A stretch of DNA of 20,000 nucleotides, from IMG/VR virus record IMGVR_UViG_3300048033_000643; one strand, 5' to 3'. The notes under the pieces were generated by a model, which was given only the letters and a program-made list of their open reading frames with translations, did no database searches and was not told where the DNA came from. This document shows positions 503 through 20,000 of this stretch, in pieces (the stretch's first letter is position 1; the number at the start of each line of letters is the position of its first letter). A program made the position numbers and the translations under genes. The stretch comes from an uncultured virus (IMG/VR IMGVR_UViG_3300048033_000643) (Duplodnaviria; Heunggongvirae; Uroviricota; Caudoviricetes; Crassvirales).

Positions 503-514
503 GCGTTTAAACGC
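503..514. repeat. Palindrome GCGTTTAAACGC, first member of a dispersed GTTTAAAC array
   Basis: Core GTTTAAAC read at 505, 968, 1413, 1871, 2529, 3406, 4501, 5771, 6146, 9437, 11275 and 17064. Confidence 0.9.
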
Positions 515-2493: not shown

Positions 2494-2841
2494 ATGACTA
2501 AAATTAATTTAAATAATTATCCGAGAGTGTTTAAACGCCACACTAAATTTTGGGCTGATTTTCATGACTACATAGAAAATTGTATCAATGGCGAAAAGAA
2601 AATGAATTTAGCGAAGTACAATTTAATAGTTTCTAAAAGAGATGTTTCCCTTTGGACTAAGTTAAATGTAAAACCTCATAGAGGTTGGAAAGTATCGCAA
2701 GTAAAAGAATACTTTGGAATCAAAGGAAGTAAAAAAACTTTGCTAGACAATTTCACAAAAGTGTTTGAGGAGTATATGTTATTAGAGAAAGAATTGACAA
2801 AGAAAGCGATGTTAGGAAACGTTCACATGGACGCATGGTAA
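2494..2841 (+). CDS. Hypothetical phage protein
   Basis: ORF track. Ends 8 nt before the tRNA. Confidence 0.75.
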   Translation: MTKINLNNYPRVFKRHTKFWADFHDYIENCINGEKKMNLAKYNLIVSKRDVSLWTKLNVKPHRGWKVSQVKEYFGIKGSKKTLLDNFTKVFEEYMLLEKELTKKAMLGNVHMDAW

Positions 2842-2849
2842 AAAATAAT

Positions 2850-2922
2850 TGCGGGTTAGAGCAGTGGTCAGCTCGTGAGTCTCATAAACTCAAGGTCATA
2901 GGTTCGAATCCTTTACCCGCAA
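2850..2922 (+). tRNA. tRNA-Met(CAT) with initiator-like body and atypical anticodon stem; CCA not encoded
   Basis: Acceptor TGCGGGT/ACCCGCA, D-stem GAGC/GCTC, anticodon arm TGAGT-CTCATAA-ACTCA, variable region AGGTC, T-arm ATAGG-TTCGAAT-CCTTT, discriminator A. Confidence 0.92.
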
Positions 2923-2924
2923 CA

Positions 2925-3108
2925 AAATCAGTATCTGAGATTAAATCAGGAACTCAGACTAAGCTTATTCCTGAACCAATGCCGTTGCAACGGCTACTTA
3001 ACCGAACGAGACTTAAAGTCTTTCAGTACATTAAGGAACGGGATAAAAGTAAGGCTGATTTCAAAATGTAGAAATAGGCGAGTATTGAAACAAGGGTACT
3101 AATTTCTA
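2925..3108 (+). ncRNA. Candidate structured ncRNA with an H-type pseudoknot, downstream of the tRNA
   Basis: Closing stem 2925-2932/3054-3061. Pseudoknot 2934-2939/2953-2958 plus 2946-2952/2968-2974. Hairpins at 2981-2994, 3008-3022 and 3069-3108. Confidence 0.55.
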
Positions 3109-3109
3109 A

Positions 3110-3148
3110 CGAGGGGTGGCAATACTCCAAACCCCTCGGCATTTTTTT
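3110..3148 (+). terminator. Rho-independent terminator
   Basis: Stem CGAGGGGT (3110-3117)/ACCCCTCG (3131-3138) followed by T7 (3142-3148). Confidence 0.7.
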
Positions 3149-3167
3149 AAAAAGTAAATTATTAATT

Positions 3168-3428
3168 ATGGCAAATATAAATTTCAGTAACGAGACAACA
3201 AAGCAATTGTTGGATTGTAAAAACGCACAGGTCGAGGCGTTACAAAAAGATCGACAAAAGAATATTGATTTTCTAAAACGACTAATAGAATACGTTGAAA
3301 ATCCAAAACATTCTGAAAACGAGTGGTCAGAGGATTTTCTAAGTGACGGCGAAATGTTGGATATAGTTGTTGATCAGTTAAAAAAATTCACAGCGATAAG
3401 ACATCGTTTAAACAACCCCAAATCATGA
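3168..3428 (+). CDS. Hypothetical protein
   Basis: ORF track. Stop overlaps the next ATG at 3425. Confidence 0.75.
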   Translation: MANINFSNETTKQLLDCKNAQVEALQKDRQKNIDFLKRLIEYVENPKHSENEWSEDFLSDGEMLDIVVDQLKKFTAIRHRLNNPKS

Positions 3429-4371: not shown

Positions 4372-4610
4372 ACGTAAAAGGAACTTATTGTATAACAGAA
4401 AGTATGGAACAATATAATCTCGAAATAGATTATCAGTATTACCATAAAAAACCTACACATTACGATCCACTTGAAGATCAGTTAGATATAAAAGAAGTGC
4501 GTTTAAACGGGATGGACATAACTAAATTCTATTGGGATTATCTCGATGAGGATATGTTTATTGATGTTTATGAGTACGCAGTAGAAAATAAATATGAAAA
4601 TCATGAGTAA
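4368..4610 (+). CDS. Hypothetical acidic/aromatic protein
   Basis: ORF track, coupled start. Confidence 0.75.
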   Translation: MNVKGTYCITESMEQYNLEIDYQYYHKKPTHYDPLEDQLDIKEVRLNGMDITKFYWDYLDEDMFIDVYEYAVENKYENHE

Positions 4611-14306: not shown

Positions 14307-17300
14307 TTAAAAAGGAGATTTAGGCATGCCACTGCTTCTCCTATTACTAAATGGAGATTTAGGGCCAGAGGGTTTATTACTTTTTTTAGTTTTATTTTTC
14401 TTTTTCTTTTTAGGAATGTAAGTGTTTTCTTTTGCTTTTCTTGTTTTTTTATAAGCTCTAAAATTATAATCCATTATTGCCCCTGCCTCAAGCGGCAAAA
14501 ATCCTAATAAATATAATGTGTACATAGGAGCTTGAGCTAAAAGATCATTTTTATATTTTGGATCCATTTCTACTTCTCTACCATATCTATCTTTATATTT
14601 ACCTGTTGTCGCTAAAGAAACCATATCCACAATTTGCAAGGCTTTTTCCCCACCAATTCCTAACACACCTAACCTATCTAATAACCCTTCAGGCTGATTT
14701 ACAAAAAATTGAAAAGGATCATCGCTATCAAATGTTGCTATTAAAGCGTTAGTAGCTTGTAAAACCTCAGGATTCACTAAAGGAATTGGGCTAACTATAT
14801 CTGCAAAAGCTTGCCCTTTTCTACCTTTTTTTCTATTTTCAAATTGCTTTAACAAAGTTTCTTCATCTTCATCTGTTCCTCTTAGCGCCCTGGCCGCTCC
14901 AGCTAAAGATTGTGTTATAAATAATCCAACCGCATTAAATGTTGCAGTTTCTGCAACTAATCCTCCAAGAGATTTTCCAGCTTTTAGTTTATCTTGTACT
15001 GTATTTGATTTAGAAAACACTGCACCTAAATCATTATACATCCTTGTTTTTTGATTTAATAAAAAGTTTGCAAAAGGAAAAGCTACTTTTCGTAAAACCT
15101 GAAGAACTGGATCTTTACTTGCAAACAACTCCCCTTGTAAATCTACATCCGATGTATTTTGTTGTCTTGCAACCTGTTGAGTGGCATAATTTAACGCCTT
15201 ATCATTACTCTTGTGCGTACTCCAATCTATATTATTAGAATCAATATTTTGTTTTTTTAAACTTTCTAAATAATAAGCCATAAAAGAAGCTCTTGCCGCA
15301 AATCTGTCAGGATTTACAAGAAAACCTTGCAACCAACCTTTTTGAGCTTTATTAATTACATCCCCAAATTTTCCTGCTTTACCTGTAGAATCTGTTTCTA
15401 ATCTAGAATCTGTTCCTTCGAGGTTAGTCACTGCCTGCACTCCTCTATTAGCGATCTCAACCCCTGAATTATCTAGCCATTTTATTGCATCTGTGTTTGT
15501 ACCTATTAAATTAATTCCTTTAAAAACAGCACTAGGATTATTAATTGTATTTATAAAAGTATTAATTAAAGGAACCATTTGTTTTACATATTGAGTTGGG
15601 CCACCAAGAACTCTTGATACACCTAAGCCTGCAAAACGATTTAAATTTCTTAACCATTTTTCTTGTCCTTTTTGTAAACCTCGTTTTTTTTCTACATATC
15701 CTTTAAATCTTTCTTTTATTAACTTCCTGTCTTCTGTGTTAGGTATAATTTTTTCAAATGAAGGTGAAGACATAAACCCTTTTAATTGTTGAATTCCTGG
15801 AGCAGTATTAACATCGGTTAGAGCAGCTCTTAAATTATTAACATTATTACTATCAAAACCTAAATTTACATATCTATTTGTATTTCCATCCTTATCCATA
15901 GGCAAAACAAAAGAAGGTTTTTTAACTTTTAAAACTCCAGTCTCTTTATCATATACCGTCTCATTAGTGTCAGGCTGAAAAATAGGTTTGTCTAAACTTG
16001 GTTCTGATTCTACACCGTCTAATTTAGAAAAAGAATCAGGTGTATAATTTAAATCTTTACCTAAGGTTCTATTATATATATTTAAAGATACATCTTCTAA
16101 TTCAGGACGAGCTTTTGACCATTCATTAGTCATCCAGTCTACTGCACTTTTATTTATTGGATCAGTTTTTTTATCTACTTCATTTATACTGTTAGAGTTT
16201 TTTAACAATTTATCAAAAACTTTTTGATAATTTTCTGCTTTTTCGGTTTGACCATTATCTTTTAACTCTTTAATACTTAATTTTACAAGGCCCTTTCTTC
16301 TGTTAAATTCTTGGTCTTGTTCCGCTTCAGTTCCGTCAACTGTTCTTCTCATAAAAGCAAACACTCCTCTTTCAAGATCATTCTCTACATCATTAAATCT
16401 TTTTCCATTAGGCATTGTTTTAGTGTTACCTAATTTTACATTACTTCGTAGTCCGCCTGGATTTATAAATTTATCATAATACGCTTCAGTTATGTTTTGA
16501 GCAAGTTTATCAGCTTTAGCAACTCCGTTCCTTATAGTTGTAAAACCACTTATTTTTTCAAACAACAAAGCTTTGCTTTGAGATTTAAACATTTGTTCTA
16601 TGCTTTGAGGTATAGATGCTATGAATTTATTCCAAGCGTTACCTAACATTTTACCTCCAAATAAGAACTTTAAAGGTTTTGCATTTAATTTATTTTCATT
16701 ATCTACAGCATTTTGCCTTCCTTTAGCAAAATTAACGATAGCTTTTAAACCCCCTACACTTTGATTTGTAGCAAAGTTATTCATAGCAAGTAAAGCTTTA
16801 GCTCCATCTTCAGACGGTAAATTACTTATGTCAGTTTTTAAAAATTCAGATACAATTTTCTTGTCTTTTTGAGATATTTTAATTTCTTTACCAGTGAACG
16901 GATCTTTTCCTGTTTTAATAATTTGATCAACTACAGCTGAATATTTACCAAAAGCATTTTTTAAACCTTTAGCTATTACGCTTTTTTTTGTTTGTCTTAG
17001 TTTTGTTTTTTCTTCTGCGCTAAGATTATTAGTTTCAAAATTATAAAGAATTCTTTGCAGTTCGTTTAAACTAAAATCTTTAGGATCCAAGCCGGTTAAA
17101 TCTGCAAAAGCTTTTTGTTCCGCTTTAGTTTTAATTTTATCTTGCAACACTTGTTCTGCTTTAGTATATTTATCTATACTTTCTATATTAAGTGCTTCAG
17201 AAATTTTTACATCTCCTTTTTTTGAAGTTTTAATTGGAGTTAATCCTTGCACTACAGAATTAGCGTTAGCTACAAAAGATTCTAAATCATTAATGTTTTC

Positions 17301-20000
17301 GGGTTTTAATTTTATAAATTCTTTTGCAGAATTTACAACTTCAGCCGGCGCATTAGAATTTTTAATAAGTCTTTTAATTCTTTTAACAACCGATTTTGCT
17401 TTTTTAATTTGTTGTGAATTCTTTTTTACATCTTCTACTTCCGTCTTTTGGTTTTGCGTTTGACTTTCTGTTTCTTTTTGGCTCTGGTTGGTAACGGCCC
17501 CGGTGGTGTCTCCTTTGACCACCTTTTGGCCATCTCCGGTTTGTTTTTGTACATCCACGCCCTCTGTGCTTGACTCTTGAATGGCATCTTGTTTGTCTTT
17601 AATTAGTTCTTCTTGTTTCTTTAAAATATTAGCTTCAGATTCTAAAATAGCAGGGAGTTTAGATTTTAACCTCACTTCATTCTCAGCTTGTAAAGCTTTG
17701 ACAGCTTCTTCTTTAGTAACCTCAACAGTTCGTTGACCGTCTTTTTCTCCATCTATAATAGACTGAGCTTCTGCAACATCTCTTTCTTGTAATTTTTTTA
17801 TTTGCGCATCTACATCTTCAATTCTTTTGTCTATTTCTTCTTTCAAAGGCCCCTCAAGACCTTCTTTTTGGTCAATTAATCTTTGTCTTTGCTCCAGTAA
17901 ATCAGCTGCCTCCTCAACATTTTGAGACATCTTTATTGTTCCTTTTGTTTTTAATTCAGCAGCTTGCATATTATAAATTTCACTATATGCGTTTGCTGCC
18001 TCTTCTTTACTTAAAGAACCTTCATCAATTAATACATCTAAAGTTTTTTTAAGGTCTTTAACATCAGTAGCTAAAGTTCTGACTAAATCTTTTCTTTTGT
18101 TTCCAGTCAGTAATTTTCTACCTCCTAATGTAGAGGTAGCGCCAATAGTCATTACGCCTGTCTCTATTACACCAGCTGCTGTTATTTTTTGATCTAAAAC
18201 TTCGTTACCTATTTTTTGATTTACTAAATAGTTTATACCTTTTTCAGAAAAATATACAGGCAATTCTTCCACAAAAAGTTCTTTCATGTTTTCTTTTCCA
18301 AGAGCTAAACCTTTATCTACTAACTGTTTTTTTGTAAATTTTTTACCTTCTTTAATAGCTAGATTCTTAACCTGGTCTTTAATAGCTTGAAATCCTACAA
18401 GTAATCCTTCATTGCTACCAGCTAGTCCTGAAAAAATACCATCCAATGTTGATATGGCTTGACCTGCATTTACTGCAATATCCATAGCTTCTTTTTCGCT
18501 CATACCTGTAGCCATTAATTGACTTCTAATATCATCTACATTTTTTACTACACCACTTGTAAAAGAAGTAAGCCCCATTGATACTTTACCTGCTGTGTTT
18601 GGTTTTAAAACTTTATTCAAACCTGTAGCATTTTTAACTTTACCAGCAGTTCTAATAAGAGCAACTAAGTTTACAATAGTATTTACGCCTCCAGTAGCAA
18701 CCGATCCTCCTGTCCAATTTATTACTGTATTAGGAACGTCTTTTGACCTTTTAATAATTGAATTAATTTTCTCTTCAGACAATATACCCTCCATTCTAAT
18801 GTTAGAATTAGAATCATACACTGTACCATTGCCATCAACAATAAACTCCTCACCTTCAAAAGTTACAGGCTTGCCTTCTAAAAAAGCAGGTCTTTTTAAT
18901 TCACCCAATTCTAAATCAACCCTATCGCCGCTATCCGTAATCATCTCACTTACCCCCGCTAAAAAACCTTTTTTGTCGTATCCAAAAGTTGCTAAACGTT
19001 GGTCAATCATACCGGGAATTCCGCCAACAAAATCTGTTGCAAAAGAAGTTAATGCTGTACCTCCAGTTTTTAACAATTCAATACCGCCTGCTGACAACTC
19101 TGCTCCTCCTCCTTTTTTAAAATTATTGTAAAGCTCTCTTCGTCTTTCCAATTCATCATCAAAAGCCTGATCTTTATATGTAGGAAACGAATCTATGGCT
19201 GACTCTAACGAAGAGTAAGTATTCATAAACTCTTTTTTCAATGAAGAAGCTTCTTTCTTTAGTGCTTTTATTTCTTCAGGATTTGTCGATAAACTTTGTG
19301 CAGCTTCATTTGCCGCAATCTTATTAGTTATTGTATTTAACTTAGAGGCATTATATGATTGTAATTTTTCATATTGTCTTTTCTCTAACTGATATTGATT
19401 TCCTTCATCGGTTGGTAAAAGTTTTTTAAAAAATTTATAAACCGAACCTTCTTGCCTGGTATTTTTTTTCTCCCATTTCAAATAATCTTCCTGATCTACA
19501 TTGTTCTCCATCAATATTTCTTGATTTATTGTGTCAGGATTATTATAATCTTCTTCAGTTAATATTACCTCTTCTTTTTTTACTACTTTAGGGTTAGCTT
19601 TTTCGTATAATTTAATAGCTTTTAGAATATTTTCTGGAATTTCAGATTCTTTTTTTAAAGAAAACTCACCTGTTTCTGGATCTTTGATTTGATAAGATTC
19701 TCCAGCCAAAACCTTCATGGTATCTATGTTTTCCATTTGCGGTTTATTAGAATCGAAAAATCCTACAGAATTTAAAATATCTATATTACTTTGATTTTCT
19801 AATAAAGTTTGTTGATTTTCAGGAAGAGTTTCGTCAAAATCTATATCTATTTCTTCTTCAATTACTTCTGAACCAACCGAAGATCCAGGAGGCTGAACCA
19901 CTTCTGTACCTGATACCAATTCCTCTTCTTGAACAATAGGTTCGGAAGAGTCTTTTTTTTTTACAGAATCATTAAACCCATACTGTACTTTAAACTCCTC
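14307..20000 (-). CDS. Very large (>1897 aa, 5'-partial) probable virion structural or DNA-ejection protein
   Basis: The frame stays open past TTG 19919 to the window edge (EEFKVQYGFNDSVKKKDSSEP...). Helical and coiled-coil composition, Gly/Ala-rich hydrophobic segments and a basic C-terminal tail. Late-strand orientation. No catalytic motif recognised. Confidence 0.7.
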   Translation of the reverse strand, partial: EEFKVQYGFNDSVKKKDSSEPIVQEEELVSGTEVVQPPGSSVGSEVIEEEIDIDFDETLPENQQTLLENQSNIDILNSVGFFDSNKPQMENIDTMKVLAGESYQIKDPETGEFSLKKESEIPENILKAIKLYEKANPKVVKKEEVILTEEDYNNPDTINQEILMENNVDQEDYLKWEKKNTRQEGSVYKFFKKLLPTDEGNQYQLEKRQYEKLQSYNASKLNTITNKIAANEAAQSLSTNPEEIKALKKEASSLKKEFMNTYSSLESAIDSFPTYKDQAFDDELERRRELYNNFKKGGGAELSAGGIELLKTGGTALTSFATDFVGGIPGMIDQRLATFGYDKKGFLAGVSEMITDSGDRVDLELGELKRPAFLEGKPVTFEGEEFIVDGNGTVYDSNSNIRMEGILSEEKINSIIKRSKDVPNTVINWTGGSVATGGVNTIVNLVALIRTAGKVKNATGLNKVLKPNTAGKVSMGLTSFTSGVVKNVDDIRSQLMATGMSEKEAMDIAVNAGQAISTLDGIFSGLAGSNEGLLVGFQAIKDQVKNLAIKEGKKFTKKQLVDKGLALGKENMKELFVEELPVYFSEKGINYLVNQKIGNEVLDQKITAAGVIETGVMTIGATSTLGGRKLLTGNKRKDLVRTLATDVKDLKKTLDVLIDEGSLSKEEAANAYSEIYNMQAAELKTKGTIKMSQNVEEAADLLEQRQRLIDQKEGLEGPLKEEIDKRIEDVDAQIKKLQERDVAEAQSIIDGEKDGQRTVEVTKEEAVKALQAENEVRLKSKLPAILESEANILKKQEELIKDKQDAIQESSTEGVDVQKQTGDGQKVVKGDTTGAVTNQSQKETESQTQNQKTEVEDVKKNSQQIKKAKSVVKRIKRLIKNSNAPAEVVNSAKEFIKLKPENINDLESFVANANSVVQGLTPIKTSKKGDVKISEALNIESIDKYTKAEQVLQDKIKTKAEQKAFADLTGLDPKDFSLNELQRILYNFETNNLSAEEKTKLRQTKKSVIAKGLKNAFGKYSAVVDQIIKTGKDPFTGKEIKISQKDKKIVSEFLKTDISNLPSEDGAKALLAMNNFATNQSVGGLKAIVNFAKGRQNAVDNENKLNAKPLKFLFGGKMLGNAWNKFIASIPQSIEQMFKSQSKALLFEKISGFTTIRNGVAKADKLAQNITEAYYDKFINPGGLRSNVKLGNTKTMPNGKRFNDVENDLERGVFAFMRRTVDGTEAEQDQEFNRRKGLVKLSIKELKDNGQTEKAENYQKVFDKLLKNSNSINEVDKKTDPINKSAVDWMTNEWSKARPELEDVSLNIYNRTLGKDLNYTPDSFSKLDGVESEPSLDKPIFQPDTNETVYDKETGVLKVKKPSFVLPMDKDGNTNRYVNLGFDSNNVNNLRAALTDVNTAPGIQQLKGFMSSPSFEKIIPNTEDRKLIKERFKGYVEKKRGLQKGQEKWLRNLNRFAGLGVSRVLGGPTQYVKQMVPLINTFINTINNPSAVFKGINLIGTNTDAIKWLDNSGVEIANRGVQAVTNLEGTDSRLETDSTGKAGKFGDVINKAQKGWLQGFLVNPDRFAARASFMAYYLESLKKQNIDSNNIDWSTHKSNDKALNYATQQVARQQNTSDVDLQGELFASKDPVLQVLRKVAFPFANFLLNQKTRMYNDLGAVFSKSNTVQDKLKAGKSLGGLVAETATFNAVGLFITQSLAGAARALRGTDEDEETLLKQFENRKKGRKGQAFADIVSPIPLVNPEVLQATNALIATFDSDDPFQFFVNQPEGLLDRLGVLGIGGEKALQIVDMVSLATTGKYKDRYGREVEMDPKYKNDLLAQAPMYTLYLLGFLPLEAGAIMDYNFRAYKKTRKAKENTYIPKKKKKNKTKKSNKPSGPKSPFSNRRSSGMPKSPF
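17435..17587 (-). CDS. Nested overlapping small basic protein, 50 aa (MPFKSQAQRAWMYKNKPEMAKRWSKETPPGPLPTRAKKKQKVKRKTKRRK), in the +1 frame of the giant gene
   Basis: ATG at 17587-17585 and TAG at 17437-17435, with an A-rich leader. Local GC is elevated. The sequence resembles a small MPFKS.AQR.WM...P..AKRW..ETP..LP phage protein pattern that I recall as stand-alone ORFs. Confidence 0.65.
   Translation of the reverse strand: MPFKSQAQRAWMYKNKPEMAKRWSKETPPGPLPTRAKKKQKVKRKTKRRK

What the first reader, a model, noticed from the sequence alone, without database searches (positions are those of the whole stretch)
2925..3148. Pseudoknotted structured RNA between tRNA-Met and a terminator
Seen: starting 3 nt after the tRNA, AAATCAGT (2925-2932) pairs with GCTGATTT (3054-3061). 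Inside lies a perfect H-type pseudoknot: TCTGAG 2934-2939/CTCAGA 2953-2958 and TCAGGAA 2946-2952/TTCCTGA 2968-2974, with loops of 6, 0 and 9 nt. Also inside are a hairpin GCCGT-TGCA-ACGGC (2981-2994) and a branch TACTT/AAGTA, CCG/CGG, GAGACT/AGTCTT (2995-3051). A further stem TAGAAAT/ATTTCTA (3069-3108) and a terminator follow. About 245 nt of non-coding DNA is unusual in this tightly packed genome. Established: phage tRNA loci can host structured ncRNAs (GOLLD, ROOL, manA, theta ribozymes), and tRNA 3' processing could release such an RNA. I cannot assign it to a known family. Inference: an undescribed phage ncRNA or ribozyme.
Basis: partly seen in the sequence, partly recalled or inferred. 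Interest (0 to 1): 0.7.

Follow-up and report, generated by a model that had tools for sequence, protein, structure and literature searches.

The report
Conserved pseudoknot RNA cassette beside phage tRNA
A 134-138-base stretch just after a phage tRNA gene is almost letter-for-letter identical in a dozen related marine phage sequences and probably makes a small folded RNA of unknown job, one that some relatives do without.

Summary
The finding is two separable modules. The first is a 134-138-nt element (2924/2928-3061) holding the closing stem, the H-type pseudoknot, a hairpin and a 3' branch. The second is a stem-plus-terminator module (3064-3148), which also occurs without the element. No Rfam family matches.

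The pseudoknot pattern alone is at chance frequency in this AT-rich window. The evidence lies elsewhere:
- 12 copies were found (window, one Flavobacteriaceae MAG contig, 10 marine metagenome contigs).
- Only 3 of 134 columns vary, against 13.5% in the adjacent tRNA-Met and 22-30% in flanking genes.
- Two of the three variable sites are the two sides of one pseudoknot stem-2 pair (A-U to U-A), with no intermediates.
- Contigs from four RNA libraries of four studies cover it.

The element is an accessory cassette in a modular slot. It follows tRNA-Met directly in 8 of 12 copies, a tmRNA-like tRNA-like domain lacking the mRNA-like part ("mini-tmRNA") in 3, and a palindrome in 1. Two complete relatives lack it.

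Best reading: a new, lineage-restricted structured phage small RNA, probably released by tRNA 3' processing. Its function is unknown and ribozyme activity is untested.

The parts
2850..2923 (+). tRNA-Met (anticodon CAT), no encoded CCA. It is the upstream neighbour of the element and the probable 5' processing handle.
   Evidence: ARAGORN; Rfam RF00005 at 66.5 bits. A tRNA-Met lies upstream of all 12 element copies, and L017 has one without the element. 10 of 74 columns vary.
2924..3061 (+). The element. The invariant core runs 2928-3061 (TCAGT...GATTT). The outer AAA(A) of the closing stem is context-dependent.
   Evidence: 12 copies aligned (A1). 3 of 134 columns vary, giving 2 distinct sequences. 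No Rfam match at E<=10. MFE z -2.45.
2925..2932 (+). 5' strand of closing stem P0, pairing with 3054-3061.
   Evidence: 96% of cells are paired across copies. There is one mismatch in L028/L031, and the stem is truncated to 5 bp in L037.
2934..2958 (+). Pseudoknot stem S1: 2934-2939 pairs with 2953-2958.
   Evidence: All 6 pairs are invariant, so the stem is neither supported nor refuted by variation. It is present in the nested MFE of both haplotypes.
2946..2974 (+). Pseudoknot stem S2: 2946-2952 pairs with 2968-2974.
   Evidence: Pair 2948-2972 is A-U in 6 copies and U-A in 6 copies, with no intermediates. The same two haplotypes appear in RNA-library contigs. The nested alternative UCCUG/CGGGA is broken in haplotype B.
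2981..2994 (+). Hairpin GCCGU-UGCA-ACGGC, a perfect 14-nt palindrome.
   Evidence: Invariant.
2995..3051 (+). 3' branch domain: 2995-2999/3047-3051, 3002-3004/3039-3041 and 3008-3013/3017-3022.
   Evidence: Invariant. Only the 3008-3022 hairpin is stable in all MFE folds; the other pairings differ between the folds of the two haplotypes.
3054..3061 (+). 3' strand of closing stem P0.
2979..3071 (+). Nested small ORF (30 aa, MPLQRLLNRTRLKVFQYIKERDKSKADFKM). Considered and not favoured.
   Evidence: Read. The C-end and stop lie outside the invariant core and change with context (...ADFIFFKK in G001, L032 and L035). No Pfam match. No synonymous variation.
3064..3148 (+). Separate stem-plus-terminator module. 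The stem is 3069-3075/3102-3108, the terminator stem 3110-3116/3132-3138, and the U-run 3142-3148. Terminator-loop CAATACTC 3120-3127 is complementary to GAGTATTG 3080-3087.
   Evidence: It follows tRNA-Met directly, without the element, in L017. It is absent after the element in G001, L032 and L035. 6 of 80 columns vary. z -2.5. The A3121G variant keeps the loop pairing as U.G.

Best explanation
The element (2924/2928-3061) is an accessory, selectively maintained, structured non-coding RNA. It belongs to a narrow lineage of ~60-65-kb marine Flavobacteriaceae phages.

It sits on the + strand inside the early-gene operon, in a slot that collects stable-RNA genes: tRNA-Met, a tmRNA-like tRNA-like domain, and this element. 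I infer that it is co-transcribed with the upstream tRNA or tRNA-like domain. I also infer that the host's tRNA 3'-end processing cuts it free: RNase Z-type cleavage after the discriminator would leave a 5' end 1 nt before the closing stem. Its 3' end would be set by the downstream terminator, or in the shorter context by the U-run that follows the closing stem.

The fold is a closing helix enclosing a 6+7-bp H-type pseudoknot, a palindromic hairpin and a branched 3' domain. I infer that the compact fold gives stability and that the RNA acts in trans on a host or phage factor, most plausibly one in translation or RNA surveillance, given its neighbours.

Shown: the element's existence, its boundaries, its extreme conservation, one compensatory pair in S2, its modular presence and absence, and its presence in RNA-library assemblies.
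Inferred: transcription as a discrete RNA, the processing route, and trans action.
For: 1. Homologues. A 98%-identical copy lies in G001 contig C10. G001 is a Flavobacteriaceae MAG by the record title of the matching contig L039. A metagenome scan returned 12 loci, of which 10 are real copies and 2 are chance.
2. Conservation. 3 of 134 columns vary across 12 copies. The comparators are 10/74 in tRNA-Met, 6/98 in the tRNA-like domain, 6/80 in the terminator module, 136/611 in upstream genes and 79/261 in the downstream gene. Flanks are 72-95% identical where the element is 97.8-100%.
3. Covariation. The two substituted columns are partners in S2 (A-U 6 copies, U-A 6 copies, 0 intermediates). 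By my arithmetic, the chance that two substitutions hit both sides of one of the 40 proposed pairs and keep pairing is about 0.0015. The nested alternative pairing is broken in haplotype B, whereas the pseudoknot model fits both.
4. Both haplotypes occur in both contexts and with different tRNA alleles. The element has therefore stayed unchanged while being recombined.
5. Position. It lies 1-4 nt after tRNA-Met in 8 of 12 copies and 7 nt after the tRNA-like domain in 3 of 12.
6. RNA libraries. 6 RNA runs from 6 studies hold 40-53% of the sampled words of 2840-3170. Contigs from the 4 runs laid (4 studies) cover the element: X15 2840-3170, X16 2885-3035, X17 2936-3095, X19 2861-3113.
7. GC is 0.39-0.44 in the slot and 0.23-0.35 in the flanks. 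All neighbouring genes and the terminator are on the + strand.
Against: - There is only one covariation event, because only 2 haplotypes exist. 36 of 40 proposed pairs never vary. A single template-switch mutation in an inverted repeat, or a symmetric DNA-binding site, could give the same double change.
- Near-total invariance could reflect recent spread by recombination rather than selection.
- The pseudoknot pattern alone is at chance frequency. The - strand folds about as well (z -2.11 against -2.45).
- The nested MFE (-32.0 / -28.5 kcal/mol) is not clearly worse than the pseudoknotted alternative.
- RNA-library contigs cannot show strand, ends or true transcription (tool caveat). 3 of 4 runs have a contig that bridges the tRNA/element junction, and 2 contigs bridge the terminator. 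No discrete RNA is shown.
- The element is dispensable. Complete relatives G402 and G403 lack it.
- No distant homologue was found, so R-scape-type statistics are impossible.
Confidence: 0.5

Rival explanations
1. It is a self-cleaving ribozyme of a new class. It would cut at or near its own 5' end and so trim the 3' trailer of the upstream tRNA or tRNA-like domain, doing the job proposed for theta ribozymes with a different fold.
For: - It lies 1-7 nt downstream of a tRNA or tRNA-like 3' end in 11 of 12 copies.
- It has a pseudoknot core and near-total sequence invariance.
- Theta ribozymes sit next to tRNAs in phages that appear to infect Bacteroidota and Bacillota (PMC10879173, passages read).
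Against: - My permissive descriptor found no HDV-like nested double pseudoknot starting at 2916-2960 (0 hits).
- No Rfam ribozyme family matches at E<=10.
- tRNA-Met in L017 and the tRNA-like domain in L014 exist without it.
- L037 has it with no tRNA-like neighbour.
- RNA-library contigs of 3 of 4 runs bridge the junction uncut. This is weak evidence, because they may derive from DNA or precursor.
- 134 nt is large for a small self-cleaver (from my own knowledge).
Confidence: 0.12
2. It is a neutral or selfish DNA cassette, or a DNA-level protein-binding site. On this reading it is invariant because it spread recently by recombination among co-infecting phages, not because an RNA is selected.
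For: - It is present or absent in an otherwise syntenic slot, and the junctions fall at short shared sequences such as AAAGTAAA.
- Every neighbouring module in the slot is also optional.
- It contains perfect DNA palindromes (GCCGTTGCAACGGC, AAGCTT) and a terminal inverted repeat.
- The symmetric double change in S2 would also fit a dimeric binding site or a template-switch mutation.
Against: - There is a single copy per genome: 1 match in G001 and 1 in the window.
- I saw no target-site duplication (my reading).
- Both haplotypes persist unchanged across backgrounds whose tRNA, terminator and genes have diverged by 7-30% of columns.
- Two interleaved inverted repeats are awkward for a DNA site.
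- It is covered by RNA-library contigs in 4 studies.
Confidence: 0.15
3. It acts in cis: as a processing or stability element, an insulator for the tRNA operon, or a riboswitch-like leader controlling read-through into downstream genes through the terminator.
For: - In the window the layout is a structured domain followed by a stem and terminator.
- Terminator-loop 3120-3127 is complementary to 3080-3087, which suggests alternative pairings.
- H-type pseudoknots are common ligand-binding aptamers (from my own knowledge).
Against: - The terminator module is absent after the element in 3 of 12 copies and present without the element in L017.
- The downstream gene differs between copies. L027, L029 and L033, like L017, carry a different gene from the window.
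- No riboswitch family matches.
Confidence: 0.1
4. It encodes a 30-32-aa basic peptide (ATG 2979), with the pseudoknot as a structured leader.
For: The ORF is intact in all 12 copies. The variable sites lie upstream of the ATG.
Against: - None of the 83 ORF columns that lie inside the invariant core (2979-3061) varies. Neighbouring genes vary at 22-30% of columns, so coding constraint alone cannot explain the conservation.
- The C-end and stop codon lie outside the conserved core and change with context.
- No Pfam match.
- The start codon sits one base before the stable 2981-2994 hairpin, whose first base is the G of the ATG.
Confidence: 0.06

Closest known systems
Theta (minimal HDV-like) ribozymes next to phage tRNAs (PMC10879173; passages read)
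   Same: It is a pseudoknotted RNA placed immediately 3' of a tRNA gene in a tailed phage. The probable host phylum here (Bacteroidota) is one of the two phyla that theta-ribozyme phages appear to infect.
   Different: The topology differs. Here the order is S1a-S2a-S1b-S2b inside a closing stem, with no P3/L3 between the strands. My descriptor found no HDV-like fold. The element is about twice as long, and cleavage is untested.
Stable RNAs C and D of the phage T4 tRNA gene cluster (recalled, no call; the paper opened did not mention them)
   Same: They are small stable RNAs of unknown function encoded inside a phage tRNA operon, so presumably made by the same transcription and processing.
   Different: There is no sequence relation (no INPHARED match beyond the tRNA). 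The host and phage lineage are different. Processing of the present element is inferred, not shown.
tmRNA mRNA-like domain (P2, PK1, resume codon, tag ORF, helix 5), including two-piece tmRNAs of marine phages (PMC9004378; passages read)
   Same: The element has a closing helix and an H-type pseudoknot. Six nt later comes an Ala codon starting a short frame (GCC GUU GCA ACG GCU ACU UAA) that lies partly in a hairpin. In 3 of 12 copies the element sits 7 nt after a tmRNA-like tRNA-like domain.
   Different: - No tmRNA model matches the element at E<=10.
- The would-be tag (AVATAT) does not resemble GEDNYALAA, the tag of the G001 bacterium's tmRNA.
- The element lies 3' of a complete tRNA-like domain, not nested in it, so it cannot remain joined to a chargeable 3' end.
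- 9 of 12 copies have no adjacent tRNA-like domain.
- There is no significant similarity to the G001 tmRNA.
GOLLD and ROOL, large RNAs often found near phage tRNAs
   Same: They are structured ncRNAs of unknown function near tRNA genes in phages.
   Different: Both are in Rfam and neither matches. They are several-fold larger.

Membership tests
Any Rfam 15 family (4227 models) | A covariance-model match at or near the gathering score. | tested here: not met
   Only tRNA matched: at gathering score on the whole window, at E<=10 on 2700-3300, and at E<=1 on the whole window.
H-type pseudoknot | Two interleaved helices with sterically possible loops, supported by covariation. | tested here: inconclusive
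   The geometry is present (6 bp + 7 bp, loops of 6/0/9). S2 has 1 pair changed on both sides, and S1 never varies. The pattern alone is at chance frequency.
HDV-like / theta ribozyme | A nested double pseudoknot (P1, P2, P3/L3, P1.1) with a catalytic C at the start of J4/2. | tested here: not met
   My own permissive descriptor gave 0 hits with P1 starting at 2916-2960, against 14 spurious starts on the whole + strand. The Rfam HDV families gave no match.
HDV-like / theta ribozyme | Located directly 3' of a tRNA. | tested here: met
   The element starts 1-4 nt after tRNA-Met in 8 of 12 copies.
HDV-like / theta ribozyme, or any self-cleaver | Site-specific self-cleavage. | not testable with these tools
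   This needs an in vitro transcription and cleavage assay.
tmRNA mRNA-like domain | Nested within a tRNA-like domain through helix P2, and recognised by tmRNA models. | tested here: not met
   No tmRNA-clan match to the element. ARAGORN finds no tmRNA in the window or in L003. The neighbouring tRNA-like domain in G001 is complete on its own, at 38.7 bits against a cut-off of 47.
tmRNA mRNA-like domain | A tag reading frame with a resume codon, ending in a hydrophobic degron such as ALAA. | tested here: not met
   The frame after the pseudoknot reads AVATAT-stop (read). The tag of the G001 bacterium's tmRNA is GEDNYALAA.
Riboswitch / cis-regulatory leader | A fixed association with one downstream gene family and an expression platform. 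| tested here: not met
   The downstream gene and the terminator module differ among copies.
MITE-like mobile element | Many copies per genome, terminal inverted repeats and target-site duplications. | tested here: not met
   One copy in G001 and one in the window. The inverted termini exist, but L037 lacks the outer part. I saw no duplication at the junctions I compared.
Small protein gene | An ORF with a conserved stop, a synonymous-biased variation pattern, and homologues. | tested here: not met
   The stop lies outside the core and varies with context. There is no variation at all in the part of the ORF inside the invariant core. No Pfam family matches.
tRNA-operon stable RNA (T4 RNA C/D type) | Encoded in the tRNA transcription unit, on the same strand. 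| tested here: met
   It is on the + strand between tRNA-Met and the terminator. All neighbouring ORFs are on the + strand.
tRNA-operon stable RNA (T4 RNA C/D type) | Released as a discrete stable RNA by tRNA-processing enzymes. | not testable with these tools
   Only assembled contigs of RNA libraries were available, and these cannot show ends or strand.

The most novel reading that the evidence does not exclude
The slot may be a phage kit for taking over ribosome rescue. Its first part would be a tmRNA reduced to its tRNA-like domain, with the G3:U70 alanine identity pair kept and the mRNA-like part gone. The present element would be a detached mRNA-like module: closing helix, PK1-like pseudoknot, an Ala-codon frame with a stop, and a hairpin. 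Together or separately, the two would redirect or block host trans-translation, for example by giving stalled ribosomes a non-degron tag or by titrating SmpB, S1 or RNase R. That would be a tmRNA split in a way not described before.
Probability: 0.04. Interest if true: 0.9.

Novelty: new member of a known kind. Interest (0 to 1): 0.5.

Why it matters
Phage tRNA regions repeatedly turn out to hold RNAs with unexpected jobs, such as theta ribozymes and anti-defence tRNAs. Here a 134-nt RNA candidate is more conserved than the tRNA beside it, yet it is optional, and it travels with a tRNA-Met and a tmRNA stripped to its tRNA-like domain.

If the element is a trans-acting RNA or a new self-cleaver, it would add a family to the small set of phage ncRNAs with a defined context. 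It would also give a handle on how marine Flavobacteriaceae phages manipulate translation. The host group is abundant in the ocean, and the sequence is found in marine DNA and RNA libraries from many studies.

The limits are a narrow lineage, a single covariation event and no functional clue.

Tried and rejected
- **Cultured phages.** INPHARED blastn of 2840-3170 hit 105 records. In the 60 rows listed, every match lies within query positions 1-89, which is the tRNA. Megablast of the whole window found no match.
- **Family genomes.** BLAST of the element against 401 genomes of G001's family gave 11 genomes at E<=0.01. Only G001 matched over the full length. The other 10 were 19-41-nt fragments, which I took as chance.
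- **IMG/VR pattern scans.** Two element patterns gave 0 loci.
- **Genome-contig scan.** It returned only L039, which matches the G001 contig.
- **Flanking proteins.** Searches in IMG/VR gave 3 + 2 loci. L015 and L016 are not the same slot.
- **Nearest cultured-type relative.** MW202828.1 (66% aa identity on the primase) has no such slot and no tRNA in the region examined.
- **Same tRNA-Met anticodon arm.** 21 IMG/VR loci share it and 0 have the element.
- **Covariance model R1.** Searched over 34 sources (109 kb), it found only the 7 known copies I had included. I gave it 7 of the 12 known copies.
- **tmRNA link.** Smith-Waterman of the element against the G001 tmRNA and the tRNA-like domain, both orientations, gave only an 11-nt antisense match (13 of 14) to the tag end and stop region. 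10 of 300 shuffles did as well, before correcting for 4 tests. The 14-mer with up to 1 mismatch hit 115 of 401 family genomes, about as often as the reversed control. I rejected this as chance.
- **RNA libraries.** No laid contig covers 2523-2809 or 3261-3600.
- **The window's own assembly.** It is not held.
- **Neighbouring small proteins.** Pfam and PHROGs gave nothing informative.
- **T4 RNA C/D.** A literature search found no usable text.

Full report
**Observation.** tRNA-Met(CAT) lies at 2850-2923. The element starts 1-2 nt after it. A strong intrinsic terminator follows, with stem 3110-3116/3132-3138 and a U-run at 3142-3148.

Taken alone, the statistics are weak. A perfect 6+7-bp H-type pattern occurs once on the + strand and twice on the - strand of the window. 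Sixty dinucleotide shuffles of the 20 kb gave a mean of 3.2 over both strands. Nested-fold z-scores are about -2.5 on the + strand and -2.0 to -2.1 on the - strand. A second ORF-free gap, 1918-2129, exists but is unstructured.

**No known family.** Rfam 15 finds only the tRNA, at gathering score, at E<=10 on 2700-3300 and at E<=1 on the whole window. A permissive descriptor of my own for the HDV-like/theta nested double pseudoknot found nothing starting at 2916-2960. The strand order here (S1a, S2a, S1b, S2b) leaves no room for P3/L3.

**What the phage is.**
- PHROGs identifies a Sak-like annealing protein, exonucleases, a primase/helicase and a helicase on the + strand.
- tblastn of the primase finds phages of Flavobacterium, Nonlabens, Polaribacter, Cellulophaga and Maribacter. 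The best hit is an uncultured 60.8-kb genome at 66%.
- The nearest held genome, G001, carries a related 65-kb contig. The matching record found in genome contigs is titled a Flavobacteriaceae MAG.
- Runs holding the sequence are marine, seawater or viral metagenomes.

**Homologues and anatomy of the slot.** I found 12 copies of the element: the window, G001, and 10 of the 12 loci from a metagenome pattern scan. The other two loci are chance matches in unrelated, coding-looking DNA.

The region between the early genes is a modular slot. Its modules, in order, are:
- tRNA-Met, present upstream of all 12 copies;
- an optional 54-aa ORF;
- an optional 94-aa ORF;
- the palindrome GCGTTTAAACGC;
- an optional ~100-nt RNA;
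- the element;
- an optional stem-plus-terminator module.

The ~100-nt RNA matches the Rfam tmRNA model end to end, with the ~270-nt mRNA-like part missing (38.7 and 36.1 bits, E about 1e-12, below the cut-off of 47).

The element follows tRNA-Met directly in 8 of 12 copies, the tmRNA-like domain by 7 nt in 3 of 12, and the palindrome in 1 of 12 (L037). In L037 the outer AAAA of the closing stem is lost.

L017 has tRNA-Met followed at once by the stem-plus-terminator module, with no element. L014 has only the tmRNA-like domain. Two relatives classed as complete, of 65,232 and 62,321 bp, have no element anywhere.

**Conservation.** From TCAGT (2928) to GATTT (3061), the 12 copies differ at only three linked sites, which gives two haplotypes with six copies each.

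| Segment | Variable columns | Share |
|---|---|---|
| Element core | 3 of 134 | 2.2% |
| tRNA-Met | 10 of 74 | 13.5% |
| tmRNA-like domain | 6 of 98 | 6.1% |
| Stem-plus-terminator module | 6 of 80 | 7.5% |
| Upstream genes | 136 of 611 | 22% |
| Downstream gene | 79 of 261 | 30% |

Flanks are 72-95% identical where the element is 97.8-100%. Both haplotypes occur after tRNA-Met and after the tmRNA-like domain, and with different tRNA alleles. The element has thus been recombined among backgrounds without accumulating change.

**Covariation.** Two of the three variable sites are A2948U and U2972A, the two sides of one S2 pair. The third is a 1-nt deletion in loop 3. No copy has only one of the two substitutions.

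RNA-library contigs add two more observations of each haplotype, again without intermediates. The nested alternative for that strand (UCCUG/CGGGA) is broken in haplotype B, whereas the pseudoknot model fits both.

By my arithmetic, two substitutions falling on both sides of one of the 40 proposed pairs and keeping complementarity has a chance of about 0.0015. It is still only one event. 36 of the 40 pairs never vary, so S1, the hairpin and the 3' branch remain untested. A template-switch mutation or a symmetric DNA site could mimic the result.

**Expression.** Six RNA runs from six studies hold 40-53% of the sampled words of 2840-3170. I laid four of them. All four have contigs over the element: 2840-3170, 2885-3035, 2936-3095 and 2861-3113.

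These are assemblies. They show presence in RNA libraries, not strand, ends or level. Three runs have a contig that bridges the tRNA/element junction, and two contigs bridge the terminator.

**Coding.** ORF 2835-3071 runs through the tRNA and is an artefact. The nested ORF 2979-3071 (30 aa) is intact everywhere. However, it has no variation inside the invariant core, its stop lies outside the core and changes with context, and it matches no Pfam family. Coding alone does not explain the conservation.

**Other rivals.**
- A cis-regulatory leader is unlikely, because the downstream gene and the terminator module vary among copies.
- A MITE is unlikely, because there is one copy per genome.
- A link to tmRNA was examined because of the neighbouring tmRNA-like domain. 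The element has a closing helix, a pseudoknot, then GCC GUU GCA ACG GCU ACU UAA. No tmRNA model matches it. The frame does not resemble the G001 tmRNA's tag, GEDNYALAA. Similarity and complementarity to that tmRNA are at chance level.

**Mechanism I commit to (confidence 0.5).** The element is a structured small RNA of the phage's stable-RNA slot. I infer that it is transcribed with the upstream tRNA or tRNA-like domain, freed by tRNA 3' processing, ended by the terminator or U-run, and acts in trans.

Closest analogues:
- theta ribozymes: same position, different fold (PMC10879173, passages read);
- the T4 tRNA-cluster RNAs C and D (recalled);
- the tmRNA mRNA-like domain: a resemblance only.

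For context, two-piece tmRNAs in marine phages are in print (PMC9004378, passages read). A tmRNA lacking the mRNA-like domain is known from jakobid mitochondria (PMC3590771; seen only in the search listing, which shows the title, the start of the abstract and one occurrence of the phrase).

My searches found no paper describing a phage tmRNA reduced to its tRNA-like domain. The library is limited to open-access papers and preprints.

**Verdict.** The element is real and is a new, lineage-restricted candidate ncRNA family with one supported pseudoknot helix. Its function is unknown and ribozyme activity is untested. Interest is moderate.

Noticed in passing
L003 1915-2013 (G001 contig C10), L014 951-1051; also L032 and L035. 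Not in the window.: Relatives carry a ~100-nt 'mini-tmRNA' in the same slot. It matches Rfam tmRNA end to end at 38.7 and 36.1 bits (cut-off 47) but lacks the ~270-nt mRNA-like domain. It keeps the G3:U70 pair and a T-arm, and its sequence differs from the G001 bacterium's own tmRNA. It has no match among cultured phages. A second phage contig, L062, carries an even smaller acceptor/T-arm version.
   Followed up: partly
window 503-514, 966-977, 1411-1422, 1869-1880, 2527-2538, 4499-4510: The 12-bp palindrome GCGTTTAAACGC, with up to 1 mismatch, occurs 6 times in the first 4.5 kb against 0.01 expected. In relatives it lies 2-4 nt before the mini-tmRNA, and in L037 right before the element. It may be a phage regulatory or promoter-associated site.
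   Followed up: partly
window 3064-3148: The terminator module is itself structured (z -2.5). The terminator loop CAATACTC (3120-3127) is complementary to GAGTATTG (3080-3087), and the natural A3121G variant keeps the pairing as U.G. This could be a loop-to-internal-loop pseudoknot or an alternative pairing.
   Followed up: partly
window 2494-2841 and neighbouring small ORFs: The whole early region is a mosaic of optional small genes. ORF 2494-2841 is itself missing in 6 of the related loci (L003, L027, L029, L032, L033, L035), where the homology jumps from 2488 to 2842. Two small ORFs of 54 and 94 aa, with no Pfam match, sit between tRNA-Met and the mini-tmRNA in relatives.
   Followed up: partly
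window 14307-19919 (- strand): A 1870-aa ORF on the opposite strand has no PHROG match at E<=0.001.
   Followed up: no
window 2850-2923 compared with L041-L061: The same tRNA-Met anticodon arm (a 23-nt exact match) occurs in 21 IMG/VR loci from varied phages. These include contigs of 230 kb and 572 kb, and the tRNA is usually followed directly by protein genes or other tRNAs.
   Followed up: partly
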